This document shows, in pieces, positions 21,001 through 38,731 of a DNA stretch of 39,986 nt (its first letter is position 1; the number at the start of each line of letters is the position of its first letter). Source of the DNA: Clostridia bacterium (GTDB taxonomy: Bacteria; Bacillota; Clostridia; Christensenellales; UBA1242). Location of the stretch: NCBI GenBank assembly GCA_045588795.1, contig JAZNEY010000024.1:1-39986 (forward strand), in the 5' to 3' direction. The translations under genes and the position numbers were made by a program. A model generated the notes under the pieces. It had not been told where the DNA came from and searched no databases. It saw nothing but the letters and a program-made list of their open reading frames with translations.

Positions 21001-24000
21001 TGGATATGCAGTACTTGAATCAACGGTAACTGAAAGCGGAGAGAAAGCAATTTACTCAACGGTTTCACCAGATGTGAAAGTAAGCCAAGCAGGCTATGCA
21101 GAAAACCAAAGCACAGTAACAATAACTGTGAACGAGTTAACGGGCTACAAGTTCTTAGGCGTACTTGTTCGAAACGAGAGTTTATACAACTCCCCACTAG
21201 AAATCACAACTCAAACGAACAACAACAAAAACGACCAAACATTCAAAGCAAGAAATGAAGTATTCTTTGCAGTAGATAACGCACAAGAATACAGAACGGG
21301 AATAATAAGAGCCAACTGGACAAAGGCTGGTTCTGGGGTATACAACTTACTATTAACAGTTTGCGGTGCAGTAACAAGTTCATACTCAATAATTGCACTA
21401 TATGAAGATATCCTATTCCCAGTGGACCTTGACATTTACAAATATAACGACGAAAGATACTCAATTGCAGAGAACAAGACCGAAGAGGGCACAATCATAA
21501 CAGAGTATGAAATCAAAGATGGCGAAGAGATAAAGACATATGCAATTGGCGACACACTTGAATCTACCGAGTTATATGGATATAACAAAGTAAGCAAAGA
21601 ATACTTTGCAATATACAAAAACAGTGATGACAACATTTTCTACAAAGATGTTAAATACACAGACAAGTATGATGGAGACATTTACATCTTAGGCGAGAGT
21701 CCAAAGTACATTAAAGTGAACTACAACCCATACACAGATGAAGATAGCTTCGAGGGTTATGTACAAGGAAGCCTACTAGTTGGTAAATCTACCCCACTAT
21801 ACTTAACAGCAATCACTTATCCATACGGCCAATTCTCTGGCTGGTTATTTACAAACTCAGTCAGTGAAGAAGAGATAAAGGAAAGTCAAAAGCAAATTGA
21901 GGCTGAAATCAACGGAGGCACTTATTACGAGTACATAGTTGATATGAGCAAGTCTTACGCACATTCACTTACTGAATTGTTTGAAAGTCGCTATGATGAT
22001 GAATACAGATTTGATAGCAGGCACTTAGCGTCAGACTTATCAAATACCCTATTTACTCCAAACAAGATTTTCTACAACGGAAAAACTTATTACGAGTACA
22101 GATACAGAGTAATTGATGATACGAACAAAGTTAACCTTGAACACACAAAACTAGTTGAGGATTACCTAGAGTTCAAGTTAAACATTGCAGATGGAATCTT
22201 CTATTCAACATCTTCATATTCAGGAATAGAATACTTTATTTCAGAAATAAGTCCAGATATGTACACCAACACAGAAATCGAAGTTCTATTTATCAGAAAC
22301 ACCGGCGAAAAAGAAGTTATTACTTTAAATGCTTGTGCAACAGAAAACGGAGACCGAGAGAACTTCATAGTTGAAGCATTATTTGGAGAATTCTCATATG
22401 GCGGAATCAAGGGAAATATGTCAGACAATGTAATGTACTCATTCAATGATGATATGTACAGCATTGGAAACATCATCTTCTCAAGAACGAGTGCAGAAGA
22501 AAAGAATGCGAACACCGAATTCTTTGTATATGTAAACGGAAAACTAGTTAACATATTTGATGCACTTAATGGTTACTATTTTGCAACTGGCGGAACAAAA
22601 TGGAAAGATTTTGTAAACTCATTAATCCCACGCAAGGCAGAGATGACCTACGGAGAGAAAGTTTCAAACGGACCAATTTACACCTTTGCAAGCGACAACT
22701 TCCATTCAGTAACAGCAGTTGGAAGCGGAATAGTAAGCACGCTAAACGGAAGTGCATACTTACCAGAAAGCGAGGACATCAAGATATACGAAGATGTAAA
22801 GACATACAACGCATACACAGAACTTGATACCGACCCACCAACGACAGTAATTGATTTCAGCGGAGTTCAAGATGCATATTCATTTGATGAAAACCCAGAT
22901 TCAAGCAATCAAGGGCACTTCATCAAGGGTGAGAAAACGAACTACAATGTAATGTCGACCAACCTATCATACAGAGCATCAATCATAGCCTACTTTACAA
23001 CAGCGTACTACACAATGTACATAAATGTTGGCGAAGTCGAACAAATCTATGATTCAAACGGTGCAAAAGATGGAAACGGTAACCCAACCGGAGGCGAAAA
23101 GACCTATTACAGTTCATTCAAGGGAGACATAATTGAAGTTGACCAAATAACCGGAGATAAATACAACAGCGGAGCAGATAAAGGCTATTTCAAGACAAAC
23201 CCACAAGGCGGAGTTCAATTATACACACTAGACAATACCGGAAACATAGTTCAAGACAAAACAACATCAAACATTGAAAATTACATTTACGATTTAACGG
23301 GAAGTGTAATTGGAAACACAACAACTATTTACACAGTTACGACAACAGAAAATTCCGGCTACAAGAAGAACACAAACCCAACCGCAACAGCATACATAAG
23401 TAATTCTCAAGAGGGACTAAAGTCAAGCAACATTGTAGACATATATGGTGATTCAAGTAAACTTACACCACTTGAACAAATGCAAAAAGGATTTTCACAT
23501 TTCCTTAATTATGACTATATTTTGTTTAGCACTGCAAAACAAGGCAACACAGTAACCACCGGCGAATTATCATCAAGTTATGTATTCACAAAACTGAAAA
23601 ATACATATATTTGGGATTATTCAGGTCAAGGCGTTGGATATTCTAAATCTTCCCCATTCTGTGTTTCTGATAGCAGTAACAATACAAAACTTGAAAGCAA
23701 TCTAATCTTCACAATGTTATTTAAGACAAACGACCCTAAAACAATGTTTAATGATAACAACTATATAATTGTTGCATTCAATTCAATGGAAGCAATCACT
23801 CAATACACATTAAGCAATTCAGTTTCAGACATCAGTCAATATGTAACAGGCGAGGGCAATAATGCAAAGGTTAACGAAGAGAAGATTCAAATCAATACTT
23901 CAAACAAAGGCCTTGTAGACATTGTTCCAATTGTTACAACAAGCGGAGATTTCACAAAGCTTACAGCAAACAACATTACAGGCGGAATCAAGAACAAGCA

Positions 24001-27000
24001 ATCATCTCTTGCAATCAGAGTAAAAGTTAAAGCTATGTCAGGTAAAGGTTACCCAAGTATTCAAATTATCTTAAACGGTTCAACCAAACAAGAAATAAAT
24101 GAAGATATTGAGGGAATGTCAAGACACAACCATTACAACGCGTACTACCAAACTGATGGAGAAAATGTTGAAGTTAAGAATTATACATACGGAAACTACA
24201 AAGCATTTAACAACGAAATCCGAACTGAAAACGGAATGGTTAAGAGCAACGCATATAATGTTATAGTTGAATGTGCATTCCAAATCAATTGCGTAGCACT
24301 TGAAATTGGTATGAATTACAACGCAGAAACAGATGGCGATACAGGATATCTTACCTCACCATCTGATGAAAATGAAAATAACGAATACTTAAAAAACATT
24401 GAAACAAACGAATTGATTTCATTGTTAATTGAAACAGGAAGCGACCCAACAAGGAAAGAAGAATACGATAATTTATGTGTAACACTTACCTCACTGTTCA
24501 GTAACTATTCAATCTACAAGTTCAAAGGTGCAAACACAATACTTGAACAATTAAACGAATTCACCGAGATACTTGAAATTGCATACAAAGAAGGAAGCAA
24601 CAATTCCATAACTGAGATATTTGACCTACCAACAGACAAAAATGGTAATAGTGAACTTTATTTTGATACGAATGATGTTGATGATGCACTTAAACAAATT
24701 GATGCACTAGTTAAAGAAGGTGCTATTGTTCTAAACAACCAAGAATTATTGTTCAGACAAGTTGCAAAACTAATGGTTGAAGACATTACGAACGCATACT
24801 TAAAACGAGAGGGTAAATCTGGTGCTCCTGCAACAGTAAGTACCGCAGCAAACAAACTACTTTCAGCATTTGAAACATATATCAAATCTGGAACATTAAA
24901 GATGACCGAATTATTTGATAAAACATCATCTCTACCAATCCTAGGTAATAACACTGTTAGTAAAAACGACAACATACACTTATTTATCAGCGGTTCGCGC
25001 TTCATAATCTACAACAGTAAAGAAGCAAAAACTTCTTCGACAGACATTAAAGAGGATATGATTGTACAGGAAGTTAAAATTTACAATACAAATGGTAAAT
25101 TAACAGACAATATGTATATGCTTATGAACGATTTCATTTCGTATTGCAGTAATGACATAGCAGAAGTTCCAGACTATAACTACGTAGACACAAACATTAA
25201 TTCTACCTCACTTCTAACCTACTATTATATGGCATCAGTAATTACTCTTTACGAAGAAGCAACAAATGTTGAAGAAAAGGATAAATCAAAAATTGATTTT
25301 AACGAAGACATACCAAAATACATAGACCATTACACAGGGCTTCTATCAGTTCAAGATTTCCTTGAAAACTTTGGAACTTATTACAACACAGTAATATATG
25401 ACTTGTTACAAACCTATACAGTTGCAAAAACATACAACACAGAAGAATATTGGCAAGAATATAAACGAATTGCAATTTCAGCATATCTTGCTTACGGACT
25501 TGTATTTGATGATTACACATTCACATCTGGAACAATAGTATTCTTTGACCACTTAAAACTTGAAAATGTTACAAGCATTGATTTGAATAATTGGTCATAT
25601 GAAAAATTAAAATCAATTCAAAATTTCAGTGTCTTAAACGAATTATTGAATCAAGTCACAAGTCAATTTGACAACATCACCTACCGCGATACATTCGACA
25701 CACCAATTGCAATTGACTTTAGCGTAATTGATTTAATTAAATCAACAGTTGACTATGCTCAATCAATACCAGTGATGCAACTCTCTGTCAACCAAGTCGA
25801 AACAATGACTCTTAGATACTATTTGCCAAATATAATAAACTTCTTAAACGACAGTGTTGATGGAGATTGGAGCTCTGATTTCCGCACAACAGTTGCTAAA
25901 TACAAAGGCAATGAAGATGATTTATTGGCTTACTGGCAAAGAGGTCTTGAACAGTTAATCAGGAATGTAAAAAGTTATACCGCAACAACATATGTTTGGA
26001 GTGATGAAAACTCTAACTATTCAATCGCACCAGATGATATATATTATTCAGGAATATCATTGGTTGACTATTTCCAAGCGTTAGATATTGTAAAATATAA
26101 TGATGACGAATGGTGTACAGAATGTTCAGAGTATGTTGGTGATTATGGTCATATGTGTTACTGCAATAATGAAGATTATACCAATATTGAAATAGATGGA
26201 TTACAGAATAAAAATGGCAGCAACAAGAAAGACAGGTTCTACTTTACAAATGATGGTTCAGATGGAGAACATAAAGGCGAAACATACAACTACTTAGCAT
26301 ATGCACTATTCCTTAATCTTAATGAAGCAGGCGGTTATGATAGTAATACAGGATCTGATTCAACCAGACATTCGCTAAAATCATTTATGGAAATAAATTA
26401 TTACACTTATCTCAACTGCACACCAACATCAGAGGTAACTCAATATGTTGAATATGTAAAAGCAAATCAATCATTCGGCCTTGTTAGTGGTAGCTTAAAC
26501 AATAGCAGAGATTTATATCGCGCAGTAATTCTTACCGCAGTCAGAAAAGGATATCACGCATCAACAAGTGATGGAACTCCAACCACAACAAGTAAATACG
26601 ACCCAATAGAAAGTGAAATGGAAGAAATTAATCCAAACCATTTATTTGGCAGAAATGAAAATGATAAAAATTACGAACCACTTCGCGCATATATTGGTGA
26701 TTATGATGCAAAGACTGGCGAAGCAGATGGAAATGGCACCCTATACAAACACCTACTATTAAGTGAAACACCAACACGAGAAGTTACAATGAATGTTAAT
26801 GGTGCTGTTCAAAACCAACCATTCTTGTACTACTTAATGAATGGCTTCAATGCACAACTTTATCAATTACAACTTGCAAACCAATACCAAGTTCTAGCAT
26901 TAGAATCTGCTGAGGAGTTAGAAAGAAACTATGCATATGATTACGGTATATATCAAATAAGAACTACATATGACAAAGGATATGGCAATGAGCTCCTCAC

Positions 27001-28351
27001 TCCAGAAAACAAATTTGAACTTCAAGATTGGGTTGCCGCATATATTCACATATCTGGAAATCAAGGACCTCCTGATGATTGGCCAGTAAGTTATATAAGA
27101 GGTTTCCAACATAGCGTACCTCTCAGCGGAGACCTTAACGCTGACCTATACCAAACAATAATGACAACATATATTGCAAATGTTTACGAACTGTCTCAAA
27201 TGGAATGGTGGGCAAATTACAACGACCTTATAATAACCAACATTGATCTAAAAGAGCAAATCTCTCTTGGTTCAATTGATAAGATACGAACTGAAACAAA
27301 GAAAGGTTTCCTTGGAATTGGAAATGAGAGCAGACTAATGGCAAATGCAAATACACAAGCCGGTGGCAATATTTATAGCACAACACATAAATTAACTACT
27401 AATGAATCAAAAATAATTTCTCAACACACTGGAAAATATTATGTACATCCAGCATCAAGTGGATATGCATATGATACAGGTGTTGCAGGTTCAGGCACAA
27501 AATTATTAACTTCAAACGAAGTACTAAATGCAGTTTGTGCAATGTACGGACAAGATGTAACAAACATTGATGCCGTTGCATCAGCAAAAACTTCACTATT
27601 AGACAGATTCTTCCAAAGTTATCTTGCAAACAGTAGTTCAAAAGGTGTTAACTATGACACAGAATTGAATCTCACAGGAAATTCCGCAACAACGATTGAA
27701 GAACTTTCCAATAAACGAACAACTTGGATTTCAATGAATTCAGGATATTCGTTGCGGCTAGAATCGCACATAATACTAAACAATCAAGGCACCGGAGAAC
27801 ACAAAATCAGTTTCACCAGTGACAGTGAAAGACTTCGAAACACAATTGTCATAGGCTCAGCTAATAATTTTGACAACCTAGAAAATGGTACAGAAAATGC
27901 TACCAATTTGAAAAACGGAAGAATATACATCCGCTCTCTTGGACCAATTTATAATGATCAGATTTTAGTAGACCCAGAGACAATTAAGGAAATGAAAACA
28001 ATCGAAATCATAGCTATTGTAATCACAATAATAATTGTTGTAACAATCATTATTGCGACACAAGGCTCAGGATTTAAAGAGGCAATTAGTTCTGCATCGG
28101 CAGTCTTAAAAGCCGGAATGAAATTAACAATCTCCATACTGAAAGGCATTTTAAAACTCATATTTGGATCTACATTAAACATTGTCTTAAAAGCTCTTGC
28201 CACGGTTGCAATTGTCTCAGTTGTAACTGGATTAACGAATACCGCAACGGGACTGCTACTTTCATATAAAACAACAAGTATCTTAGAACTTGGCTCACCA
28301 GATAAAGCAACATTCGGAAGAATGACAAAATTTGAAAGTTTTGTACGCTAA
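2..28351 (+). CDS. giant (>=9,449 aa, 5'-partial) Tyr/Asn/Thr/Asp-rich putative cell-surface protein with InlB B-repeat (Flg_new)-like modules, helical inserts and a C-terminal transmembrane anchor
   Basis: No stop codon in this frame from nt 2 to the TAA at 28349-28351. The 40 codons before the ORF-track GTG (122) read DGDGHAEPVYFNPADGKFYAKRTVDKSYIYEADTKAFTEV, the same composition as the rest. AGAGG ends only 2 nt before that GTG, so it is not a credible start and the true start lies upstream of the window. Across the same 28 kb the other five frames never exceed 117 codons. The sense strand is A-rich. Product features were read from the translation. Confidence 0.93.
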   Translation, partial: DGDGHAEPVYFNPADGKFYAKRTVDKSYIYEADTKAFTEVVEIGGEYYLANEKDYYSYIGKETVYLYKNELYTNSASKIQAFIDNNLVLTASAIYNFALYNGVYFRESRTENDTFGLTIADKWNPEISLVQKIDPSTGEPQVDDNGDPVYEEQITYEDINIEALFMLFDQDGNIRGDIAYWFDEKGALAEKVTVLIARDIATEEKYRIITSEADIKKDSEGNPLETVQSVEIELAGLVFDPTYHGTKNVFTDDKHTVIISKLAQYFESDKLADWNETEFTGDEKDYINLYEKSDSELYEVKANFHANELLDMPTSINYLVADVIITTYDNLKYNLDNVASPGEYDICLRYIYDAEIQRYEYLGALGIETAMFYEVDGRYYRITDEIGEEHFYDLIVERTYVTDIKDALGENYRLIEREAVQYVFDTTPLDPVTSSEFYHLYTGKIAQYIYTEKYNGAVVLGQNLKNEYIYSLEIEGLKLTSTGFTEVPTPIYYAYEELDLTGANVIIRTNYDYANAKKLSFDETKTILPYFTADDQSTNYDASNTTEKVVYDSEGNARGVEGLTKVYTFTNPINLQKIVVSKGSGNVTLEKVVTYNNVNLLTSSNMISDVEIEIAYYYASGYKKSGIDIYNYLSTDGDFYFYIVDETLGGVYIKSSGKMSNVSGTDIYAYDYLSLVETSYLDESTNRVYYAKVFVEKDGKYLTTTTAITANFGKLYYGFADDGVERLALTTDTKTRTYSSSGYIRTAHASNSGQQVDLLGKSIMTSTTPIIYPSFLAVASVTNQSSTDKGFIYDKSTYYQIDYSSKEITKYGLPGVKVLDGAPYPNTVISFSVRHKIHDQSVVYLALEIEKVFSVELANYVQMKDGTNISLEHQTYAFKDTETNIDLNNYPDEVIAITNKLTSESLYSSDKYNLASSSFAKPNYLPNTGEVILSSRDVATIMTYEYVDYENNQLKSDYTDINYISDYLFYDTPMVLIGDSSQKMGAIGTGAKVYAKRTNAHDYSITVDSATYYYEADDTASIFYLHYATPFSSIPTNANPYDYTKVLAYDENGQQSATYYFEKVKITNSAGDIIYKNGNTSAPYYLYTNDITSNFMPYAFDETWSNNTSDPYSVRERMLALKNGNDKIVDRLIASHFRYNVIDGCWYEVVYDIYKNATLRNDYNYWTSDYNKIENAGTIDMHTYILQADGSLVLTSECTIDQICNDLYYEDNAVTEYGELIISGTTSAYRTTISSVSDKAKSYQGYYRALPYNIKNAYLADSSYFMIGVEEVILVTNPTITITDGLNSVIYRFKEWQAFTRYNSEVMYKNSEVTFENANNATFKFTSDLAKYYVFFPVYERVYSVTLESRVIDGESNQGGTITTYYKDGKRVEGDNQKIENSSSDIHFIEYSSTGKTESADGKTNLTYTYEEMDIDNYIFTTEYQAFEVVIDENTDQTVALPLYVSTTEGALNGRGYMSGKVHSSAYAGPLFAGIAGGTSYVYKYVYNNVTKQYSLQKVTDASTISSTLYDKIYSNNTYVKSTVDADTTVPYMIEQAIGASDLKVGYTDLEYGEEVTIFNIPGVNYGVTKAGTNNDYQYYLYSLSEIGASKELLPINYSNGRYFFVLDKDGNYLSVDTIVNDFIERNPESYSKLAILYDISQYSSDGKIDEKYLTYYDKTMRQPTFTSTAQLFSFALTLYREGYEGIRDILAPMFKDLESADGPEYFVYYMNPVNYLFESGYSNAQITHSSAKLNRTTSANIVRLNLDSKDEEFIQQLYTTKKISMSTNTSLMSAIKTGIYFDVYSVDDNAPNLYITHTSTGRRHTYTKVNAIDLKGGSAILFYSASANRYVINAGTEVTGLELAGNLLKARTINGETYYFYITTTSTSLTLTKQADGDNFAREIVQKANYVGIEGNDSKSGEWYVSADTYYSGMDNVSLNQNFDRHTIIQLQAVADDGYRFEGWYFAQYNEATDEFVITERVGGTNDGYAYLDEIKHLELVGENYVTVEGVEGFGLSGESQYLKDANGRVETLPEALENLYAGKFITYAVVNGTRKNVTYDSAKLQYLDDRGNVIKASAPSDDTDEIKIYSRQVFEGNDGNYYYDYNLTFQVPTELIKFIDDNEYTLFSQTQFELESNATNLVYKYEETNGNKYYYQDMNGTDNDPFMVNSKGEYVSMLNTSGDALNYNSYVGTVTSNNIVSSLTSALRLEGSIDLTIQNQSDNFTIKKAGEPIAKLGIGTKLNPISFGENPNAKGLLYSGGKLYPAVQINYTYKDTGYLAMRFVVTVSVSPSGDINFAITTNYFNNEETGTSLTISNENELETLLTLINTKGEAKYLEEFSGMTVQSNINALSARGGENPGGNNYVYDFHYSVSKAQISASGSSYNYIVSYYHEMLNPFGTLTSKVSVFENVTGLTTFTVYESTPISLEYKYARTPSNMMDATGMGAFSSLMKPYGAFYTFTTGGFDLKELGIKQLDSTGNESTTSLTTLYYRLADDTFYYLDYAVDVTTGSTTLKLTALNMGEEFTTEQAQNGEAIFNLKATVNKLSEDDAGERVYLHEGRLYRTREDGAYTVKGDTLTINQLRENVYIVARFIENYYTLVFADQNENSTIHVEDMYYFDYESNNNATILNADGVKIQSANSVETVKFGNISMEYSIKGEMIPKTANQKLPDEDGALYEYYVAYYKNGQDGKDAGEQPEQVTVYSLENKYTNPNFDPYSAKFYTLYRGRMYEIKAGESGKRDIANYDFGSYIFEQKFATDQIKTLSSAIIDYEGTDYYAFTITYLTEDEFQNLSQGKGAKTKTATIYSSESSLGIQYADNNGVRVGYLVDGNGEMLTSGLGVMSGSAGDEFKTSIECPVLEGGYYTLPLPSGNEIAYIRSIEKTGGDYNTADYSYLSALTQKLSLKTDKDGNVVDVINPKDMTISISDGTEAKVGGSKLSVNFVNQGIYIDTNTTLVIIVSCDAKSKISASYTTNPFYELTPLFYPSEEFVSRNAQNYNTEDKYYEKLYYAYLVTFNRSLENEYSEYMTQQSRGESIMFDTTELESDTFKNLYQLNDKEQFLSDFGTNVLEEDTRTAEILGIEDNIYTFYNYSQYTEKTLVRGYSYYSQATRSFYEEVYEGETFKGYYAYILGDNYDSESIVHGFNASEYNANLLNHEINPYYTIAGRPIYMCIGNSDGSPAGGLEQLERILQRDYGFTFVKDSYTLMEVSTDIYAMHKKPTPSSIKVTESTLNEYSIIAQQFLYFMDTTMSDISIASIRAELDVYGGDGDRYYEKYLSRELALNGENSTDKTVYTGVNGVLSKLYNEYLTRRNSYETNGDKTVLESYILNVVNNLISLTHGGSYSDAKEAVKFLFASYYDEVSASYTGEGLFYHYIDNEKMPEGSTNLLNVAPYLLSLQTATADDEKEIFLSACDILFDFTIYRIVELAHTYFGNARLVINEDWKAEIESEEDYLQLYELDTMSIFYNDGATGSKTEITFNALLGYAQSYLKEAKYGYEKFTQIAKDLGLTAEELSASMTRNPASFKILYNQMTENLKRLYFRNKYQNNNWDTTHALDLMRNYLQCYNDYNELIGKLQYISEKNFSQSGALNILRFSSIVVYALDLQASILNYNEGKADDDSTPENEYVEGFYETLSPYEFVEDDGDPSTIEAESENFIKLYEFFAGVGRDDITVLDTDADVEAKDLQRWYKDYGDDLTSFYAGTGLHEESLEAKAYIEYLRIYNKFKDNIEDLSYYYTLDENKLYAPTGQYKTMTIAIDTLMTVKARALDGVGAKNNEFTAIQDEDYTTVKLADGNIYNIRFAGWYYSNQANTSISSDFENMTLLTTDYQSGLIAMQNNTTMIAVYRTFEYWSFTYNPSEVRVRINQTHDSFGNPLTYSTDSVTGNITISGYFDTGTNIDATVTPLAGKAFTSIENNYHKVKAFNEAGDEVELDSLDAVRYEYASSTDPLNAMLVGTTIETNTKSEINNAIATRTLRMMVSSKTWEFDPSTLEASAKDINSFVLKAEEAKLVVFKIYGSISADKDGNYVDVFNYTINWWKNSDPTNMNLITVDKTGASNFDPELYIEELFDQEGNVIGSRYLGVDEFMQPIQIAYATETSPLHYYIFGYFKEDTTVSISTSSDKGTEFLDAWYVDGEEEKTAQDENGNTIIKVTTDDLAHLAVGYYDKQRVDLQVNTVIMNGTYDGSEGKTPFEFGTEIPAYKTLLDDLLDGIMEDSNGIALNYGKDGARYVNGQKADDVGNTLMLKYYGFDSTVKDNYVPNASGYPTYQYNSLSEFTIVTPEYVYTDMYTYKFVGWYSVSSGKSTLVATTNVVDTLKVDGKLRLDAVYEILPKVDLVTDTANSNLSVETGNPAGIYDFLYGRIPVGAESTIRGNAQTGRQLKEVIFHYTNAKGEQTLVLDMNTLTRENWVRLFPIYKDGKITTQITWQETEDNGRSTYETTTNLENLTKIEITTVQNANVNLAFSVYQTEFYDKLLATNTIDMSNLPYMKNDASDEDSYLLSKRDKFEMFAEYQKFYVEDLTKDEKTGIYRFNKNLANQGFTISAPMVTFEGKTTRFIGWYVDGKLVSTDVSYFAYYSNETNKFPQTKVNAGEDILIEARFSVSPTASILQDEGEENSGFTVLQIIDGDPAVLLQPFASSEELTSVLLANFGKYQPEVYTTFNGVKVNTPSGFYNLVGLDGDSEKLYATSEGELRPTAFYVYDEVLGMLTELEVKRDRTRRYTVIPFADFAGKTVVVNYSTASMDDLGVNFTVMQTYNGTLTRTSSAGNITATISLMTNSPSGMNVSATNNILQADLVDGKLEMCSTTFPYAEFSTGEASEVTLELDKLQANFAGWYVNGEFIGNAQTVKFNPDNGDIIEARYYSQTRVFAFEAITTSYVNGKFVTMRESTNLVALVTNGNTASSTIDNATVSGAGVPTSPYYIYSSRNGLIDRVEALGSTQIRLYAKSELSGGAFVLRGFYYETASGQQVQIKSTLETGSSYVGEINFKSSDIPEGVTKIYAHYGASTKLTVEVNTDGITGILPDGIVGISHGLGLTTDAVQKEYEFTVKLTDSYGYVITGIGYNSDGDDKGITPVTAYTSEGVTTYSGKIEILGENNLVTIYAKNQMKKDVSVYTACFDTVLTNPVKTQIVGVTTLTADATMAYSYTVGDQSYTKTLKFVGWYLLEQSTGKTSLLAYDKTLSLNAQDENIDKYVIVKKYDADGNNNLIPTSNVLSVSVAGEKVSAEDISGVSGDTFENLGITLETIENTCILDAHSFVSSEIGKDYSFVGWYKNGVLLGRSSSLQYEISKGTSQNVEARFTQGLVEIIPEVYSKNNETGEYEVHPEEITYTILTTSTLSVNKRAGAGQDVLVSIKLPKGYKINIEKTQEMMETLETKIDFLVCGNDQDAGSASILVPRLAIEALITEGFSEYTLPIYLSDKLPEEHEQIVQTFGGPAGDVAYEIKREYDIDGVKDLVIHITSYNTEVTVVNNPTVTLDSHAFTLNTYYFFYNPFVYNTNDGSALINDNKYTNGYSALTGDGTIAVPAGTVFYYYSLSARPNNSTFSSHYLADVETNNVFTLTTAPVNTRILTNPAKINTTYLVRSDDTSLPTYDFDEYAHIYSHIKDITKSGEISYYTTELPPIDEVVGLSPFTDANLYMMTDSGYNIISDKVYRALPGGVTYFQKGSERQTFYVKTLGDYVIREVKFIDIESGKTIVGKPGEFYYEDEEDLDKEERTAVTEIIADNESKTYQTYEIESTENHYIVEIILKEVFSIELQIKVNGEWLTTEVNDEVGLVDTENSVIKFTDTNNIAFVDESEFYKFTVDDKNQIYFLKDDFETTQYILEEYAKNWIDPLNNVSGYTLNNITLITRGKVQDTVFNYDGDSSMSFADMLDESRIPVLTSRDGTIGIKENTIIVLNFASPFELPTMKLDAKIEKGLAGTKLNNALENALERDGDIDYEVKNIGYAEASITLKANSSVTDENGNIFYFKGWYLGQNVYDEVLDKTIYQETLISTSSYTTTQVAPSVNSQYIAYYTPEMKQVMIDLSGVTELGGKEVTINVGGVYCKVDDLLNTGTKLTVKPSIITSSLSTIGGIKVTSGYDQATGQIGFEEAQPAIILLEIPLMLIDTLTHFTVSFGISSYQIESERIGINGDVAKVSLDNKTTILSPENITSESVDLEISSQVQKYSTSYRVNNVGSNAYEGFVRTGHQFIPYYFVEAVVAGTTEQIQNNEIKFSLETTKDRMPEDPLNRTNYQTGEVTDERTSVILQRVVTYGEIAFLKVEYAGEIEYYGIYEITGLSSAYNRLHEVNLVNRLESKYIEFGSIGEAITYENVTYSAIGKVMIADVGEHTDSDDLYYNAFYNATTKKLIVLIDGHYYLFRFNNDPTVNNYVIEEITADVTEGTLLEYYLDSYTVDLSINAETSLGGAETVSISFERNISATGKASIVIGNGMQTLASATISIRSDIDNLELKTISDYTVRQTVKDVLKKIWDIQTVSFGGQDTMRLNYNALLEEINALPNVVDGAVSSILYGDTYYRRTAKAIKPGTRNLLDSLVSSTPGQIATFIASVQGSLEDGNVYVIACYDSDEDSNDPLNYPTLTVIPELQGYWFIYTHSEKANGTSGFGIDYSDEDYKYFAYDFFSIEESKGVNEYLFTDYFAERLKTDGNYLEAWDNTNWTSVSKDLHRTTTYKEYSKLINRNVVYFADFVNLFPDINIKTLVFGWSNDMANTEIQTDLKKDFVATLTTTPMAGYTDTTIQFVSFGFFRDGATVTLKLTELSATEVEEVTDFTHGATNITNAIITNKRPGFEEFKEETALPITETKTHSPNGAVELNAYEYNTDDIVLRDDMVSIINVSAEILVKFDINAYAINRFATSIDLSKLAIKGESNYFKYLDLLAEMADKGLLDEYEKGYGTPRETDEIILDEITDEQRALFVKGEGSYLEIEQKALEIYQGYVNGIYKTYSGGSVTTVSESFTRSDAVKLLKELAEEEEIKYDITLDIIENKLKFMQSLITKYALDLESVNNFGYAVLESTVTESGEKAIYSTVSPDVKVSQAGYAENQSTVTITVNELTGYKFLGVLVRNESLYNSPLEITTQTNNNKNDQTFKARNEVFFAVDNAQEYRTGIIRANWTKAGSGVYNLLLTVCGAVTSSYSIIALYEDILFPVDLDIYKYNDERYSIAENKTEEGTIITEYEIKDGEEIKTYAIGDTLESTELYGYNKVSKEYFAIYKNSDDNIFYKDVKYTDKYDGDIYILGESPKYIKVNYNPYTDEDSFEGYVQGSLLVGKSTPLYLTAITYPYGQFSGWLFTNSVSEEEIKESQKQIEAEINGGTYYEYIVDMSKSYAHSLTELFESRYDDEYRFDSRHLASDLSNTLFTPNKIFYNGKTYYEYRYRVIDDTNKVNLEHTKLVEDYLEFKLNIADGIFYSTSSYSGIEYFISEISPDMYTNTEIEVLFIRNTGEKEVITLNACATENGDRENFIVEALFGEFSYGGIKGNMSDNVMYSFNDDMYSIGNIIFSRTSAEEKNANTEFFVYVNGKLVNIFDALNGYYFATGGTKWKDFVNSLIPRKAEMTYGEKVSNGPIYTFASDNFHSVTAVGSGIVSTLNGSAYLPESEDIKIYEDVKTYNAYTELDTDPPTTVIDFSGVQDAYSFDENPDSSNQGHFIKGEKTNYNVMSTNLSYRASIIAYFTTAYYTMYINVGEVEQIYDSNGAKDGNGNPTGGEKTYYSSFKGDIIEVDQITGDKYNSGADKGYFKTNPQGGVQLYTLDNTGNIVQDKTTSNIENYIYDLTGSVIGNTTTIYTVTTTENSGYKKNTNPTATAYISNSQEGLKSSNIVDIYGDSSKLTPLEQMQKGFSHFLNYDYILFSTAKQGNTVTTGELSSSYVFTKLKNTYIWDYSGQGVGYSKSSPFCVSDSSNNTKLESNLIFTMLFKTNDPKTMFNDNNYIIVAFNSMEAITQYTLSNSVSDISQYVTGEGNNAKVNEEKIQINTSNKGLVDIVPIVTTSGDFTKLTANNITGGIKNKQSSLAIRVKVKAMSGKGYPSIQIILNGSTKQEINEDIEGMSRHNHYNAYYQTDGENVEVKNYTYGNYKAFNNEIRTENGMVKSNAYNVIVECAFQINCVALEIGMNYNAETDGDTGYLTSPSDENENNEYLKNIETNELISLLIETGSDPTRKEEYDNLCVTLTSLFSNYSIYKFKGANTILEQLNEFTEILEIAYKEGSNNSITEIFDLPTDKNGNSELYFDTNDVDDALKQIDALVKEGAIVLNNQELLFRQVAKLMVEDITNAYLKREGKSGAPATVSTAANKLLSAFETYIKSGTLKMTELFDKTSSLPILGNNTVSKNDNIHLFISGSRFIIYNSKEAKTSSTDIKEDMIVQEVKIYNTNGKLTDNMYMLMNDFISYCSNDIAEVPDYNYVDTNINSTSLLTYYYMASVITLYEEATNVEEKDKSKIDFNEDIPKYIDHYTGLLSVQDFLENFGTYYNTVIYDLLQTYTVAKTYNTEEYWQEYKRIAISAYLAYGLVFDDYTFTSGTIVFFDHLKLENVTSIDLNNWSYEKLKSIQNFSVLNELLNQVTSQFDNITYRDTFDTPIAIDFSVIDLIKSTVDYAQSIPVMQLSVNQVETMTLRYYLPNIINFLNDSVDGDWSSDFRTTVAKYKGNEDDLLAYWQRGLEQLIRNVKSYTATTYVWSDENSNYSIAPDDIYYSGISLVDYFQALDIVKYNDDEWCTECSEYVGDYGHMCYCNNEDYTNIEIDGLQNKNGSNKKDRFYFTNDGSDGEHKGETYNYLAYALFLNLNEAGGYDSNTGSDSTRHSLKSFMEINYYTYLNCTPTSEVTQYVEYVKANQSFGLVSGSLNNSRDLYRAVILTAVRKGYHASTSDGTPTTTSKYDPIESEMEEINPNHLFGRNENDKNYEPLRAYIGDYDAKTGEADGNGTLYKHLLLSETPTREVTMNVNGAVQNQPFLYYLMNGFNAQLYQLQLANQYQVLALESAEELERNYAYDYGIYQIRTTYDKGYGNELLTPENKFELQDWVAAYIHISGNQGPPDDWPVSYIRGFQHSVPLSGDLNADLYQTIMTTYIANVYELSQMEWWANYNDLIITNIDLKEQISLGSIDKIRTETKKGFLGIGNESRLMANANTQAGGNIYSTTHKLTTNESKIISQHTGKYYVHPASSGYAYDTGVAGSGTKLLTSNEVLNAVCAMYGQDVTNIDAVASAKTSLLDRFFQSYLANSSSKGVNYDTELNLTGNSATTIEELSNKRTTWISMNSGYSLRLESHIILNNQGTGEHKISFTSDSERLRNTIVIGSANNFDNLENGTENATNLKNGRIYIRSLGPIYNDQILVDPETIKEMKTIEIIAIVITIIIVVTIIIATQGSGFKEAISSASAVLKAGMKLTISILKGILKLIFGSTLNIVLKALATVAIVSVVTGLTNTATGLLLSYKTTSILELGSPDKATFGRMTKFESFVR
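11357..17893 (+). repeat. cluster of divergent InlB B-repeat / Listeria-Bacteroides repeat (Flg_new)-like modules inside the giant CDS (protein-level repeats, not DNA repeats)
   Basis: Motif codons read directly: RFAGWY 11357-11374, FLDAWY 12338-12355, KFVGWY 12833-12850, RFIGWY 13625-13642, NFAGWY 14453-14470, KFVGWY 15437-15454, YSFVGWY 15761-15781, FYFKGWY 17873-17893. Most are followed about 25-45 aa later by an h-x-A-x-[FY] strand (MIAVY, LDAVY, IEARF, IEARY, VEARF, YIAYY). Outliers: YRFKEWQ 3872-3892, RFEGWY 5822-5839 (preceded by LQAVADDGY), QFSGWLF 21830-21850. Degenerate GFY/GIGY variants lie between them, e.g. VLRGFYYE...IYAHY at about 14.83-14.98 kb. Confidence 0.7.
28001..28266 (+). 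other. C-terminal membrane-anchor region of the giant protein (TM helix plus Lys-rich amphipathic/hydrophobic tail)
   Basis: Codons 28001-28060 encode IEIIAIVITIIIVVTIIIAT, 20 uncharged mostly beta-branched residues. They are followed by FKEAISSASAVLKAGMKLTISILKGILKLIFGSTLNIVLKALATVAIVSVVTGLTNTATGLLLSY, which is Lys-periodic and then contains a second hydrophobic stretch. No LPXTG-like motif precedes it. Confidence 0.75.
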
Positions 28352-28361
28352 AAAAACTAAT

Positions 28362-28397
28362 CCCCCTCCCCCCTTGGGGGGAGCCCCCAAAAGGGGG
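28362..28397 (+). terminator. tandem GC-rich hairpins 11 nt after the giant-gene stop (non-canonical terminator or 3'-end stabiliser)
   Basis: CTCCCCCC (28366-28373) / GGGGGGAG (28376-28383) is a perfect 8-nt inverted repeat, immediately followed by CCCCC (28384-28388) AAAA GGGGG (28393-28397). No U-tract follows on the + strand (GAACAAAACTAAAAC). On the minus strand a T-run lies about 10 nt past the hairpins. Confidence 0.55.
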
Positions 28398-28828
28398 AAC
28401 AAAACTAAAACAAAATAAAAGATAAACAATCAAAAATTAAAAAATCATATTCTAAATTAAACATCAATAATTTGTGGCTTTTTAAGGAAAAGCCAGCAAA
28501 AAAATCAGCCATAACTTCTATGGCTAAACAAACATAAGGTCATAAAGTTTAACTATTAATTTTATGACACAAATCAATAAAAAACTTTTACTTTTATCAC
28601 TTCGGCGACAACAAACAACTATCATAAAACAACCCTTTAAAAATGAAAATCGCGAGTCATTTTTAACCGGTCTTAAAGGATACTAGTTTCTCGGCGACCA
28701 AATATCCACCAAGATAGGACACAGCGATTAAAGTGCAAATTTCGAGCCAATTTTAATTGTGGTGAATTAAAAGGCTCCAAAAATAAATGCATTTAAAAAA
28801 CTTTTAGCTTCAAAGTTGATTGAAAAAA

Positions 28829-28913
28829 TAGCAGATAAAAGCGAGGGAAAGTTTCGCTAAAAAGTTTTGTTTTAAAAACAACTTCCCTTTCCCATTCGCT
28901 TTTGCTATCTGCT
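28829..28913. repeat. long imperfect inverted repeat (about 24 paired positions in three blocks) in the spacer downstream of the giant gene
   Basis: The left arm TAGCAGATA-AAAGCGA-GGGAAAG (from 28829) pairs with the reverse complement of CTTTCCC-AT-TCGCTTTT-GC-TATCTGCTA (to 28913). The paired blocks are 9, 8 and 7 bp, separated by short bulges. A-runs flank it on the + strand, so the U-tract follows only in minus orientation. Confidence 0.5.
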
Positions 28914-28940
28914 AAAAAACAAAACACTAAATTTTTAAAA

Positions 28941-28969
28941 TATTTGAAAAATTTAAAACTTTTCAAATA
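28941..28969. promoter_or_regulatory. perfect 10-bp inverted repeat, candidate operator upstream of the 610-aa gene promoter
   Basis: TATTTGAAAA (28941-28950) and TTTTCAAATA (28960-28969) are exact reverse complements separated by 9 nt. The repeat lies about 45 bp upstream of the putative -35. It is AT-only, so a chance palindrome is possible. Confidence 0.3.
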
Positions 28970-29012
28970 ATGTTTTTGTGTATCAAAAATTTTTATGAAG
29001 TCATCAAATTAG

Positions 29013-29041
29013 TTGTGTAAAGTGTCAAAATATTTTATAAT
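29013..29041 (+). promoter_or_regulatory. putative sigma-A type promoter of the 610-aa gene
   Basis: TTGTGT (29013-29018), 17-nt spacer, TATAAT (29036-29041). The -10 ends 29 nt upstream of the ATG at 29071. Confidence 0.5.
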
Positions 29042-29070
29042 ATAAAATAACTACAAGGGAAATAGAACAA

Positions 29071-30903
29071 ATGGAAAAAATCAAAAGAAAACTTAGTCAA
29101 AGAATAATATCCATAATAAGTGCTCTGGGCTTAATTTGTCTTGGGTTAAGTTTCTTTGCGGGAAATAATAAACCACTAACAAGCAATTTAACCGAGGTCA
29201 ACGCTGAGGCACAAAGTGCAACATCATACCTATCCGCCCCACAGATTATTGAATCTAACGAGGCAACCGGAATGTTATTTATTTACGACAGTTACACAAA
29301 AAGACTATCTTCCCTTAATTCAAATGATAATATGATAAAAAAGACATCATCATGGACAGCAGAAATTATTTCGCTTTGTCACACCGACACACACCTGCTT
29401 GCACTCACCAAAGAAACGGGAGTGAACGCAGTTTACATAATTGATGAAGAAACCTTAGCACGAACAAAACTCACATACAGCGCACAAAAGCAAATTTCCT
29501 GTCTAACCGCTTGCGGAAATGATGTATATATGTATTTATCCTCAGATGACCTAATCCGCTCGGCAACAATAGATAAAGCAAATGGAACGCTTACAGTCAA
29601 CAACAATTTTATTGCAAGTAGCACCGATTTTGGCGGAGATGAAATTACCGGATTAATGCTATCTGGAAGCACGCTATACTACACAACAACGGTTAGTGGC
29701 ACAGACAAAATTTACAAACTTACAGATGATGGGATTGGACACTACGAAAGGGTCGAAATTGCAGTTCCAGCCGAAACTGGATCATTTAGATATATTACCC
29801 CACACAAGCAAAGTAAAAACTACATACTAACAAGCACAAATCATTTGCTTACGCTAAGCGGAGACAGCGTTCAAAGCACCAGACTAAGCACTGCAAATGC
29901 AAATTCTAAATACACAAGCATAACATTCATAGGCACAACAAAGTATATTGCTGACATTTGTGCGCAAAGCATATGGAAACTTGAAAATGGAAGCTCCTCG
30001 TTCAGTGTCGTATTCAAAAACGAAACTCCAACTCCTGCAATAACGAACGCAAAAGAGCACAAGCACCTTGAAGTTATTAAAAGCACTGCTCTTTACGCCA
30101 CCCCATTTGCGACTGAAAGTTTAAAAGATTTAGAGGCTGGCGACAGACTCACCGTAATTGCAAGAGATGACTCATCATATATGGACTACTATTACTGCAT
30201 ATACACAAATAAAAGCGAAAACATATATGGCTACATAAAAAAAGATGACTCATTTATAACTCTTGAAAAAACCGAAGTATATATTTCTTTAAAAATTATA
30301 GGCGACTCAAATAACATAGTATATACCCTACCAAGCGGGATTAAAGATGAAAGCAACCAGCAAGTCGCAGACCTTGCTTCAAGGTCAACAACCACCCAAA
30401 TAATGGCTCAAAAAGCAACAAACTCAGCCGGTGATGATTTTTACTTGATTGAACTTGAAAATGGAAAATACGGATATATAAGATATTCACAAGTTACAAC
30501 GAACTTTGCAAGCAGTCAAGTTGAAAGGATAAAATGTAACGGAAAGACAAAACGAGAAACAATAATGTACATTTGCCCAAGTTCAACTGCTGAAAGCACC
30601 TACACAGAGTCAGAGATTGAAGATTTTAGTTCAACCATTACAATAAAGGCAAACACAAGAATATTCTTAAATGAAAAAGTAAAAGCCGGAAACAATTACA
30701 CAAAGGTAACTTACCAAACAGAGACAGGCGAAACATATATCGGCTACATTAAGACAGCCGACCTAGATGCAGATGGATTAACCCCACTTCAACTTGCAGG
30801 AGTTATCTTAGTTGCTGTAAATATTCTAATTCTTTTAGTCATATTCATAGCCCGCAAAAAGGTAATAGATTCAAGAGAAAACTCAATACCAACTGCGAAA
30901 TAA
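29071..30903 (+). CDS. membrane-anchored surface protein: N-terminal signal/anchor, beta-rich (possibly propeller, DUF5050-like) region, three SH3b-like modules, C-terminal TM helix
   Basis: ATG with AAGGGA (29055-29060) 10 nt upstream. N-terminal hydrophobic segment IISIISALGLICLGLSFFAG (about nt 29101-29160). LYYTTTVSGTDKIYKLTDDG-type motifs in the first half. Three modules at aa 331-565 (nt 30061-30765) end in GYIKKDD, GKYGYIRYSQV and YIGYIKTADL, the bacterial SH3 (SH3_3) signature. C-terminal LQLAGVILVAVNILILLVIFIARKK (nt 30784-30852). Confidence 0.85.
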   Translation: MEKIKRKLSQRIISIISALGLICLGLSFFAGNNKPLTSNLTEVNAEAQSATSYLSAPQIIESNEATGMLFIYDSYTKRLSSLNSNDNMIKKTSSWTAEIISLCHTDTHLLALTKETGVNAVYIIDEETLARTKLTYSAQKQISCLTACGNDVYMYLSSDDLIRSATIDKANGTLTVNNNFIASSTDFGGDEITGLMLSGSTLYYTTTVSGTDKIYKLTDDGIGHYERVEIAVPAETGSFRYITPHKQSKNYILTSTNHLLTLSGDSVQSTRLSTANANSKYTSITFIGTTKYIADICAQSIWKLENGSSSFSVVFKNETPTPAITNAKEHKHLEVIKSTALYATPFATESLKDLEAGDRLTVIARDDSSYMDYYYCIYTNKSENIYGYIKKDDSFITLEKTEVYISLKIIGDSNNIVYTLPSGIKDESNQQVADLASRSTTTQIMAQKATNSAGDDFYLIELENGKYGYIRYSQVTTNFASSQVERIKCNGKTKRETIMYICPSSTAESTYTESEIEDFSSTITIKANTRIFLNEKVKAGNNYTKVTYQTETGETYIGYIKTADLDADGLTPLQLAGVILVAVNILILLVIFIARKKVIDSRENSIPTAK

Positions 30904-37474: not shown

Positions 37475-37477
37475 ATT

Positions 37478-37551
<74 letters not shown>

Positions 37552-38650: not shown

Positions 38651-38731
38651 ATATTTTGGTCCTCCTTTTATAAATCTATATTTTAGGGTACTACAATTGC
38701 AAAAATAAGTCAAACAATTTTAAAGTTCCCT

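What the first reader, a model, noticed from the sequence alone, without database searches (positions are those of the whole stretch)
24380..27330. Membrane-proximal helical region of about 1,000 aa with lower G+C than the gene body
From NEYLKNIETNELISLLIETG to about KIRTETKKGFLGIGNESRL the protein again reads as mostly helical and Leu/Asn/Lys/Tyr-rich. Examples are ILEQLNEFTEILEIAYKEG, ALKQIDALVKEGAIVLNNQELLFRQVAKLMVEDITNAYLKREG and QLYQLQLANQYQVLALESAEELERNYAYDYGIYQI. There are no GWY modules here. My hand counts of G+C on single 60-nt lines give about 13-24 of 60 for six lines sampled at 23701, 24601, 25201, 25561, 26401 and 27301. Thirteen lines sampled between nt 1 and 22201 gave 12-32 of 60, most at 20 or above. 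The low outliers were 12 at 11101, inside the first helical region, and 16 at 22201. This is sparse, noisy sampling, but it suggests a compositional shift in the 3' 4-5 kb. The membrane-proximal module may have a different origin or different constraints, and it is the best place to look for a novel function.
Basis: partly seen in the sequence, partly recalled or inferred. Interest (0 to 1): 0.6.

Follow-up and report, generated by a model that had tools for sequence, protein, structure and literature searches.

The report
Codon shift in giant gene tail
The last 4 kb of a giant surface-protein gene from a small-genome human-gut Clostridia bacterium really does have lower G+C, but this end has ordinary codon use for the genome while the gene body is the outlier, and it was inherited with the rest of the gene rather than imported.

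Summary
The G+C drop is real. The region has GC 0.338 and GC3 0.270. Upstream values are 0.381 and 0.340, and no same-size upstream window falls below 0.365. A maximum-likelihood GC3 changepoint lies at codon 8083 (nt 24251).

- The low-GC stretch runs to the stop codon at 28351. It is not confined to the helical module.
- The tail is typical of the genome (genome ORF GC3 0.266). The 24-kb body is the outlier, rich in C-ending NAY/ATY codons like EF-Tu and ribosomal protein genes.
- Body and tail share one history. Collinear orthologues of 10,080-12,646 aa exist in four species of the same genus, divergence is similar in both parts, and the two trees have the same topology.

Three orthologues show a weaker drop at the same place, which favours position-specific constraint over foreign origin.

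The protein region (aa 8127-9112) has three conserved blocks separated by hypervariable, indel-rich linkers. Its length ranges from about 380 to 1,160 aa between species. An exhaustive search of 1.84 billion proteins found only six hits, all C-terminal fragments of the same giant family. There were no Pfam, NCBIfam or credible PDB matches.

AlphaFold models are mostly helical but low-confidence (pLDDT 35 and 46), so the fold and function stay unresolved. My best reading is a variable-length extracellular stalk next to the membrane anchor.

The parts
2..28351 (+). Giant ORF cut at its 5' end by the contig end: 9,449 codons here, against 12,391-12,646 aa in full-length orthologues.
   Evidence: There is no Pfam hit anywhere in the protein.
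2..24250 (+). Gene body with atypical codon use. GC3 is 0.340. C-ending NAY/ATY/TTY codons make up 0.526 of their class, and third-position C is 0.247 against 0.120 genome-wide.
   Evidence: The genes with the highest C-ending fraction in this genome are EF-Tu, S2, L22, L2, EF-Ts, EF-G, L7/L12 and PPDK.
24251..28351 (+). 3' segment of 4.1 kb with GC3 0.261, which is typical for the genome. It starts at the ML changepoint (codon 8083) and runs to the stop codon.
   Evidence: The support interval for the changepoint is nt 23129-25238.
24380..27337 (+). The finding's region, aa 8127-9112. It is extracellular and membrane-proximal, with predicted helical blocks separated by variable linkers.
24464..24562 (+). 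Conserved block A (aa ~8155-8187, ...LFSNYSIYKFKGAN..L.QL.EF).
   Evidence: Alignments. The block HMM also finds G003 aa 9379-9415 (i-E 5e-8).
25187..25801 (+). Conserved block B (aa 8396-8600): YYY..A.I..Y, VQD.L.NF..YYN.V.YDL, ISAYLAYGLVFDDYTFTSGTIVFFD and IDFSVIDL.KS..DY. It is the only part of the AlphaFold2 model with pLDDT of 55-80.
26789..27301 (+). Conserved block C (aa 8930-9100): LYYLMN..NA, then TTY..N.YEL...ANYNDLIITNIDLKEQ..LG. The second stretch holds most of the residues invariant across all eight aligned sequences.
   Evidence: G003 aa 9657-9756 matches at i-E 1.4e-9.
27329..27991 (+). Juxtamembrane domain (aa ~9110-9330), not helical-looking: APVGYYYV..SDY, RYF.PY.AN..G.NY, YSL.V.SYI. 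It shares the low GC3 of the tail.
28001..28267 (+). C-terminal membrane anchor. TM1 spans aa 9334-9352, followed by further hydrophobic or amphipathic segments to about aa 9422.
   Evidence: Read directly from the sequence. The feature is conserved in all orthologues.
29071..30903 (+). Syntenic partner gene of 610 aa, with an N-terminal signal or TM segment and a C-terminal TM segment.
   Evidence: It lies directly downstream of the giant gene in all five genomes.

Best explanation
The region is a native, vertically inherited part of one giant surface-protein gene.

The protein. Full-length orthologues carry a lipoprotein-type N-terminal signal and C-terminal TM helices, so everything between them, including aa 8127-9112, lies outside the cell. 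This segment sits about 220 residues before the first TM helix. It has three conserved, hydrophobic and aromatic-rich blocks that are predicted helical. Hypervariable, indel-rich linkers separate them, and their length changes several-fold between species. I read it as a variable-length stalk or spacer. Its conserved blocks would form the base that couples the beta-rich ectodomain of more than 8,000 residues to the membrane anchor. They might also dock the conserved neighbouring membrane protein. This functional reading is an inference.

The G+C dip. It is not imported DNA. The first 24 kb of the gene strongly prefers C-ending two-fold codons, as translation-factor and ribosomal protein genes do in this genome. 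In the last 4.1 kb that preference falls about half-way back to the genomic AT-rich average. The fall is a step at the start of the tail, not a gradient. It recurs more weakly in three of four orthologues, so it most likely reflects weaker selection on synonymous sites in the anchor-proximal part. The composition facts and the shared history are shown. The cause of the step is inferred and unresolved.
For: Composition.
- Searches give the GC, GC3 and changepoint figures. Tail GC3 equals the genome expectation and the body exceeds it.
- The C-ending fraction of NAY/ATY/TTY codons is 0.526 in the body and 0.368 in the tail. The genome mean is 0.233 +/- 0.087.
- The genes with the highest fraction were confirmed by Pfam as EF-Tu, S2, L2, EF-Ts, EF-G, L7/L12, L22 and PPDK.
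- The body's departure from genome codon usage correlates with that of these genes (r = 0.59, slope 0.60). The tail's correlation is weaker (r = 0.35, slope 0.25).
- In every orthologue the giant gene has a higher C-ending fraction than its flanking genes.

Shared history.
- Orthologues are collinear.
- Body and tail give the same tree with comparable branch lengths.
- The tail blocks occur once per protein and are retained in the distant G003 orthologue.

Recurrence.
- GC3 drops at the homologous boundary in G002, G005 and G006 (p 4e-3, 7e-4, 2e-3).
- There is no significant gradient in C-ending fraction within the body of any orthologue, and no GC3 gradient in four of five, so the change is a step.

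Architecture.
- Lipobox-like N-termini and TM C-termini are seen in the orthologues.
- Conserved blocks alternate with indel-rich linkers.
- The homologous region measures 842, 832 and 1,162 aa in G002, G006 and G005 and about 380 aa in G003.
- AlphaFold2 predicts helices over the conserved blocks.
- Residues rare in disordered regions are abundant (Y 8.2%, L 9.3%, I 6.9%, W 1.0%).
Against: - A codon adaptation index weighted on the eight translation and glycolysis genes does not separate the region from the body: 0.604 against 0.600, with the whole tail at 0.577.
- The shift also lowers GAG, which those genes avoid, and AAG, which they favour. It therefore looks like a general GC3-to-AT3 move at two-fold codons rather than a clean loss of adaptation.
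- The body prefers A-ending four-fold codons, whereas the highly expressed genes prefer T-ending ones. Its bias is only partly of the highly-expressed type.
- G003 shows no drop, and G002 shows none in the C-ending fraction.
- The stalk reading has no structural support. The models have pLDDT 34.7 and 46.3, and Foldseek found nothing at E <= 0.001.
Confidence: 0.55

Rival explanations
1. Mosaic origin. The 3' 4 kb, or the helical module alone, was acquired by recombination or horizontal transfer from a lower-GC donor. This would parallel the AT-rich C-terminal tips of rhs or polymorphic-toxin genes.
For: - The compositional change is a sharp step rather than a gradient.
- The step is largest in this genome.
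Against: - Body and tail give the same tree topology with similar branch lengths.
- Tail identity to the orthologues is no higher or lower than body identity.
- The tail matches the host genome's own codon usage, so the body is the odd part.
- The drop recurs in three other species whose synonymous sites should be saturated.
- No copy of the tail was found on any other protein among 1.84 billion representatives. None was found in 300 genomes of the order either.
Confidence: 0.07
2. Programmed codon tuning. The less C-biased, presumably more slowly decoded codons of the last ~1,370 codons are kept by selection. They would coordinate folding of the helical base, stop-transfer and membrane insertion of the anchor at the end of a protein of about 12,500 residues. 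This would be a very large version of the conserved rare-codon clusters of Chaney et al. 2017 (PMC5438181).
For: - The step sits at a domain boundary.
- The direction is the same in four of five orthologues at the homologous place.
- The effect holds in three of four conservation classes of residues. The small high-identity class (135 codons) keeps a C-ending fraction of 0.51.
Against: - The tail's codons are not rare. They are average for the genome, still above the genome mean in C-ending fraction (0.368 vs 0.233), and have the same adaptation index as the body.
- The effect is weak in G002 and absent in G003.
- There are no translation-rate data.
Confidence: 0.12
3. The conserved blocks form a functional module of a new kind rather than a passive stalk. 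For example, they could be a docking platform for the syntenic 610-aa membrane protein, or an oligomerisation or wall-interaction domain.
For: - Blocks A, B and C keep many invariant aromatic and polar residues across species that share only about 26-40% identity overall.
- They survive even in G003, where the linkers are lost.
- The partner gene is always adjacent and occurs in every genome that has the giant gene.
Against: - No catalytic or binding motif was recognised.
- No family or fold match was found.
- Conservation is equally expected for a structural base.
- There is no interaction evidence.
Confidence: 0.2
4. Sampling noise. The apparent GC dip is within the normal fluctuation of an AT-rich gene.
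For: Single 60-nt lines vary widely, with SD ~3 of 60.
Against: - No same-size upstream window comes within 0.027 of the region's GC.
- The changepoint LLR is 17.1 against a permutation maximum of 6.8.
- Fisher tests of body against tail give p = 5.5e-9 for GC3 and 2.5e-10 for the C-ending fraction.
Confidence: 0.01

Closest known systems
Ebh (Staphylococcus aureus) and Embp (S. epidermidis): giant ~1-MDa surface proteins with a C-terminal DUF1542 region and a transmembrane anchor (PMC7587433)
   Same: - It is a Gram-positive-type giant surface protein of about 10,000 aa or more.
- It has an N-terminal export signal, a long extracellular body and a predicted helical membrane-proximal region.
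- A C-terminal TM segment anchors it instead of an LPXTG/sortase signal. In Embp, the DUF1542 modules plus the TM region serve as the 'anchor region'.
   Different: - No sequence relationship was found. DUF1542, FIVAR, GA and YSIRK give no hit here.
- The body is beta-rich with diverged B-repeat-like modules, not helical FIVAR-GA repeats.
- The export signal in the orthologues is lipoprotein-type.
- The membrane-proximal region is not a tandem repeat. It consists of three unique blocks with variable linkers.
Giant (10,000-30,000 aa) predicted proteins of gut Clostridia with Listeria-Bacteroides repeat and other beta-rich domains (West-Roberts et al., bioRxiv 10.1101/2023.11.21.568195)
   Same: - The host class and habitat are the same (mammalian gut metagenomes).
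- The size class is the same.
- The inferred role is surface or adhesion.
   Different: - That survey does not describe this family's C-terminal module.
- It has no occurrence of the word 'codon', so it does not address codon heterogeneity.
- This protein has no Pfam-detectable domain at all.
Conserved rare-codon clusters (Chaney et al. 2017, PMC5438181)
   Same: Both involve a position-specific change in synonymous codon choice that recurs at the homologous place in related genes.
   Different: - The scale here is about 1,370 codons rather than tens.
- The codons are genome-typical, not rare.
- Recurrence is weak and incomplete: three of four orthologues, with small effect sizes.
AT-rich C-terminal tips on GC-richer cores of rhs and polymorphic-toxin genes (from my own knowledge and an earlier scan note; not read here)
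   Same: Both have a lower-GC 3' end on a long surface or secreted protein gene, with a step-like boundary.
   Different: - rhs tips are laterally swapped toxin modules followed by immunity genes.
- This tail is orthologous across species, has the same tree as the body, ends in a membrane anchor and matches the host genome's composition.

Membership tests
Ebh/Embp-type giant adhesins (FIVAR-GA repeats + DUF1542 + C-terminal TM) | DUF1542 (PF07564) modules before the TM anchor. | tested here: not met
   Pfam scans found no DUF1542 match in the tail at E <= 0.1, in the whole protein at E <= 0.01, or in eight family members at E <= 0.01.
Ebh/Embp-type giant adhesins (FIVAR-GA repeats + DUF1542 + C-terminal TM) | FIVAR/GA helical repeats forming the body, and a YSIRK-type signal. 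| tested here: not met
   There are no Pfam hits. The orthologue N-termini show a lipobox-like ...AGC/...TGC/...SAC signal, not YSIRK.
Ebh/Embp-type giant adhesins (FIVAR-GA repeats + DUF1542 + C-terminal TM) | C-terminal transmembrane anchor after a giant ectodomain. | tested here: met
   A hydrophobic helix spans aa 9334-9352, with further hydrophobic segments after it, and this is conserved in all orthologues. The assignment comes from reading the sequence. No TM predictor was run.
Horizontally acquired or mosaic C-terminal module (rhs or polymorphic-toxin tip type) | The tip has a different phylogeny or distribution from the core. | tested here: not met
   Body and tail have the same tree topology and similar branch lengths. 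The tail was found only on this giant family.
Horizontally acquired or mosaic C-terminal module (rhs or polymorphic-toxin tip type) | The tip's composition departs from the host genome. | tested here: not met
   Tail GC3 is 0.261, against 0.263 expected from genome codon usage and 0.266 for genome ORFs.
Conserved rare-codon cluster (Chaney et al. 2017) | The codons in the cluster are rare for the organism. | tested here: not met
   Tail codon usage is average for the genome or slightly more 'optimal': C-ending fraction 0.368 vs 0.233, and adaptation index 0.577 vs 0.530.
Conserved rare-codon cluster (Chaney et al. 2017) | The position is conserved among homologues. | tested here: inconclusive
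   The GC3 drop at the homologous boundary is significant but small in G002, G005 and G006 and absent in G003. Only five related sequences were available.
Intrinsically disordered linker | Depletion of aromatic and aliphatic residues, and no conserved blocks. | tested here: not met
   Y is 8.2%, L 9.3%, I 6.9%, F 3.7% and W 1.0%. Three blocks have many invariant residues. The low pLDDT may simply reflect an alignment of only six sequences.

The most novel reading that the evidence does not exclude
The conserved membrane-proximal blocks, together with the always-adjacent 610-aa bitopic membrane protein, form a previously undescribed anchoring or assembly platform for a ~12,500-residue protein tethered at both ends. 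The step to less C-biased codons over the last ~1,370 codons is then a selected slow-down that times folding and membrane insertion of that platform.
Probability: 0.1. Interest if true: 0.6.

Novelty: new variant of a known kind. Interest (0 to 1): 0.3.

Why it matters
The result is mainly a correction. A within-gene GC dip that looked like a foreign module is the part of the gene with normal composition, and the 24-kb body carries a bias resembling that of highly expressed genes. That bias suggests this enormous protein is made in quantity by a gut bacterium with a genome of only about 1.2 Mb. This would represent a large investment for such a small cell and fits an attachment-dependent lifestyle.

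The tail is an orphan module confined to one genus of uncultured human-gut Clostridia. It shows how the cell-proximal end of such giants can evolve, with fixed blocks and freely resizable linkers. If the step in codon choice proves to be selected, it would be an unusually large case of position-specific codon tuning.

Tried and rejected
- **Pfam.** Scans of the whole protein in two halves, of the tail and of eight family members gave nothing.
- **NCBIfam.** Nothing.
- **PDB by sequence.** phmmer gave only noise from designed TIM barrels at E ~0.2. The profile search gave one hit, 9ze4_M 'N4 gp53-like protein' (E 1.8e-4). It lies over the IRxxGL motif and TM helix outside the finding, has a high bias score, and I treat it as TM composition.
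- **Homologue searches.**
  - The exhaustive HMMER search of 1.84 billion representatives returned six hits, all C-terminal fragments of the same giant family.
  - The word-index search returned two hits with the tail alone and none with the full-length query.
  - Genome and metagenome contig scans returned only the three known orthologues and one near-duplicate.
  - A profile search of 300 genomes of the order found none outside the window's own genome.
- **AlphaFold2.** The model of aa 8100-9120 has mean pLDDT 34.7, and the model of the conserved core aa 8389-8609 has 46.3. Foldseek of the latter against PDB gave a best E of 1.7. I did not fold-search the larger model because its confidence was too low.
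- **Internal paralogy.** Pieces of the protein against the whole gave no non-self BLASTP hit. The tail-block HMMs found no second copy, so the tail is unrelated to the earlier helical insert at nt 9500-11270.
- **Ribosome-flux gradient as the cause of the shift.** Rejected, because the C-ending fraction shows no slope within the body of any of the five genes.
- **GC-biased gene conversion in the body.** Rejected, because four-fold codons in the body are less G/C-ending than the genome (0.131 vs 0.184).
- **Low-bias codons confined to poorly conserved or lineage-specific inserts.** Largely rejected. The tail is lower than the body in every conservation class, although the gap is small in the high-identity class of 135 codons (0.51 vs 0.57).
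- **Tandem repeats and internal promoter or terminator signals in 22-31 kb.** Nothing beyond chance.
- **Rfam.** Only two tRNAs at 37.4-37.6 kb.
- **Strain-level and expression checks.**
  - An exact-sequence look-up of the partner protein, meant to find strain-level contigs, found none on record.
Full report
**Setting.** The window is the whole of contig C24 of a 1.09-Mb metagenome-assembled genome (115 contigs, 84% complete, GC 0.342). One open frame runs from nt 2 to the TAA at 28349-28351. It holds 9,449 codons and is open at the 5' end because the contig ends there. Related records are titled 'MAG: uncultured Clostridia bacterium', with isolate names that include 'Hadza' and 'Nepal'; I take these to be human-gut samples. 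The finding covers aa 8127-9112 of this protein.

**Checking the observation.**
- The region has GC 0.338 (GC1/2/3 = 0.426/0.318/0.270). The 24.4 kb upstream has 0.380 (0.446/0.355/0.340).
- Windows of the same length anywhere upstream average 0.381 +/- 0.008 and never fall below 0.365.
- A single-changepoint likelihood scan on third-position G+C puts the break at codon 8083 (nt 24251). GC3 is 0.340 to the left and 0.261 to the right. The LLR is 17.1, against a maximum of 6.8 in 200 permutations.
- The 2-log-likelihood support interval is nt 23129-25238.

However, the low-GC3 state does not end at 27330. It continues through the next domain and the transmembrane segments to the stop codon.

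**Which part is unusual.**
- Genome-wide, ORFs of 200 aa or more have GC3 0.266 +/- 0.038.
- Given each part's amino acids and the genome's codon preferences, the expected GC3 is 0.263 for the tail (0.261 observed) and 0.256 for the body (0.340 observed).
- The tail is therefore ordinary and the body is the outlier.

The body's excess lies in C-ending two-fold codons: AAC 0.68, TAC 0.62, CAC 0.82, GAC 0.45, TTC 0.54, plus ATC 0.29 and AAG 0.42. The pooled C-ending fraction of NAY/ATY/TTY codons is 0.526 in the body and 0.368 in the tail. Across the genome's ORFs it is 0.233 +/- 0.087. The ORFs with the highest fraction were confirmed by Pfam as EF-Tu, S2, L22, L2, EF-Ts, EF-G, L7/L12 and pyruvate phosphate dikinase. 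The giant gene ranks fifth among 775 ORFs.

Across 59 codons, the body's departure from genome usage correlates with that of these genes (r = 0.59, slope 0.60). The tail's correlation is weaker (r = 0.35, slope 0.25). In all four orthologous genes the C-ending fraction also exceeds that of flanking genes.

The simplest reading is that the giant gene carries a bias of the highly-expressed type, and that this bias relaxes in the last 4.1 kb.

**Caveats on that reading.**
- An adaptation index weighted on those eight genes does not separate the region from the body: 0.604 against 0.600, with the whole tail at 0.577.
- In the tail both AAG (favoured by those genes) and GAG (avoided by them) fall.
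- The body prefers A-ending four-fold codons, where those genes prefer T-ending ones.
- At third positions the change is mainly C to T: C3 goes from 0.247 to 0.190 and T3 from 0.253 to 0.327.

The shift is therefore a general move of two-fold codons toward the genomic AT-rich state. It is not a clean loss of adaptation.

**Tests of possible causes.**
- The change is not a gradient. Within the body, the C-ending fraction has no significant slope in any of the five genes. This argues against a decline in ribosome flux along the mRNA.
- It is not GC-biased gene conversion. Four-fold codons in the body are less G/C-ending than the genome (0.131 vs 0.184).
- It is not confined to poorly conserved or lineage-specific segments. 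The tail is lower than the body in every conservation class. The small high-identity class (135 codons) keeps a C-ending fraction of 0.51, against 0.57 in the body.
- It partly recurs. At the homologous boundary, GC3 falls in G002 (0.400 to 0.357, p 4e-3), G006 (0.329 to 0.285, p 2e-3) and G005 (0.341 to 0.297, p 7e-4). It does not fall in G003.
- These species share only 26-72% amino-acid identity in this gene, so synonymous sites should be saturated. A recurring drop therefore points to a continuing position-specific force rather than one old event. These are five related sequences and small effects, so this evidence is suggestive only.

**Origin of the tail.**
- Same-genus genomes G002, G006 and G005 carry single ORFs of 12,490, 12,391 and 12,646 aa. 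All are collinear with the window's protein along its whole length, at 22-58% identity per 300-aa bin. The tail bins (27-37%) fall within that range.
- A more distant orthologue in G003 (10,080 aa) is also collinear and keeps the three tail blocks.
- Maximum-likelihood trees from 5,436 gap-free body columns and 583 tail columns have the same topology and similar G000 branch lengths of 0.84 and 0.91.
- An exhaustive HMMER search of 1.84 billion representative proteins with aa 8127-9326 returned six proteins. All are C-terminal fragments of this giant family ending in the same TM anchor.
- Other searches added only one near-duplicate of G006.
- A profile search of 300 genomes from 151 genera of the order found no match outside the window's own genome.
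- In the genus, the gene was found in four of seven other species. G001 and G004 lack both it and its neighbour gene.

I find no support for a separate origin of the tail, and no case of it fused to another protein.

**Anatomy of the region.** The alignments show three conserved blocks.
- Block A, aa ~8155-8187: LFSNYSIYKFKGAN..L.QL.EF.
- Block B, aa ~8396-8600: YYY..A.I..Y, VQD.L.NF..YYN.V.YDL, ISAYLAYGLVFDDYTFTSGTIVFFD and IDFSVIDL.KS..DY.
- Block C, aa ~8930-9100: LYYLMN..NA and TTY..N.YEL...ANYNDLIITNIDLKEQ..LG.

Between the blocks lie segments that hardly align and vary greatly in length. The whole region measures 984 aa here, 842 aa in G002, 832 aa in G006, 1,162 aa in G005 and about 380 aa in G003. 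Each block occurs once per protein, and the tail is unrelated to the earlier helical insert.

Downstream comes a conserved, non-helical juxtamembrane domain (aa ~9110-9330). It is followed by a TM helix at aa 9334-9352 and further hydrophobic segments. The orthologues begin with lipoprotein-type signals, so the whole stretch up to TM1 should be extracellular.

**Structure.**
- AlphaFold2 with the six-sequence alignment gave mean pLDDT 34.7 for aa 8100-9120. Only block B reached 55-80.
- By my count from the DSSP element list, that model has about 45% helix and about 1% strand, with nothing regular between aa ~8700 and 8930.
- Re-predicting the core alone gave pLDDT 46.3.
- Foldseek of that model against PDB found nothing better than E = 1.7.

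The sequence is rich in aromatic and aliphatic residues and has conserved blocks. The helical fold is nonetheless unproven, and the low confidence is what an alignment this shallow would be expected to give. 'Lys/Tyr-rich' is not true relative to the body. Only Leu and Asn are raised.

**Interpretation.** The best-supported account is a native, extracellular, membrane-proximal stalk with conserved base blocks and resizable linkers.
- The nearest analogue in organisation is the DUF1542-plus-TM 'anchor region' of staphylococcal Ebh/Embp (PMC7587433).
- The defining domains of that family were tested and are absent. The resemblance is architectural only.
- Giant Clostridia gut proteins of this size class have been surveyed (bioRxiv 10.1101/2023.11.21.568195), but that survey does not describe this tail.

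The codon step is real and partly conserved, and its cause is open. I favour relaxed selection on synonymous sites in the anchor-proximal part. Selected codon tuning (compare PMC5438181) and a new docking function with the neighbouring gene remain as lower-probability alternatives. Import of foreign DNA and chance are disfavoured or excluded.

**Limits.**
- Only five orthologues were available.
- No AlphaFold DB library was available.
- ORF sets for the genome statistics come from a simple longest-ORF caller, not a gene finder.

Noticed in passing
window 29071-30903 (+): A 610-aa protein with an N-terminal signal or TM segment and a C-terminal TM helix lies directly downstream of the giant gene in all five genomes (28-33% identity over most of the protein). 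It is also present in G007, 1.5 kb from a contig end. It is missing, together with the giant gene, from G001 and G004. This looks like a conserved two-gene unit. Its only Pfam hit is a weak SH3_3 match (E 0.003).
   Followed up: partly
L012/L015/L017/L026 (orthologue 5' ends); not in the window: Full-length orthologues start with lipoprotein-type signals (...MAGC...FTGC...LSAC). The ~12,500-aa protein may therefore be lipid-tethered at its N-terminus and TM-anchored at its C-terminus. The window lacks about 3,000 N-terminal residues because the contig ends.
   Followed up: partly
window ~27914-28200 (aa ~9305-9400): A profile of the tail hits PDB 9ze4_M, 'N4 gp53-like protein' (E 1.8e-4, 22.9 bits), over the IRxxGL motif and the following TM helix with its Gly-rich turn. 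The bias score is high, so this is probably TM composition. The motif-plus-helix arrangement is nonetheless similar.
   Followed up: partly
window ~26108-26179 (aa 8703-8726): A Cys-rich insert specific to this genome, EWCTECSEYVGDYGHMCYCNNEDY, sits in one of the variable linkers of an otherwise almost Cys-free protein. The orthologues have no counterpart.
   Followed up: no
window 2-28351 and the orthologous genes: In this genome the whole giant gene is poor in third-position T and rich in third-position C (C3 0.247 and T3 0.253, against 0.120 and 0.376 genome-wide). Across the orthologues its C-ending fraction exceeds that of the flanking genes. For Asn, Tyr, His and Asp the C-ending preference is even stronger than in the translation-factor genes.
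   Followed up: partly
window 37391-37551 (-): Two adjacent tRNA genes are the only Rfam matches in the window. Next to them are an ArsP-type permease gene (37655-38713, -) and a small CarD_TRCF_RID-domain protein gene (32681-33199, -).
   Followed up: no
window 28352-29070: The intergenic gap between the giant gene and its partner is unusually long (720 nt) and AT-rich (GC ~0.32). The only terminator-like hairpin there lies on the minus strand at 28527-28505.
   Followed up: no
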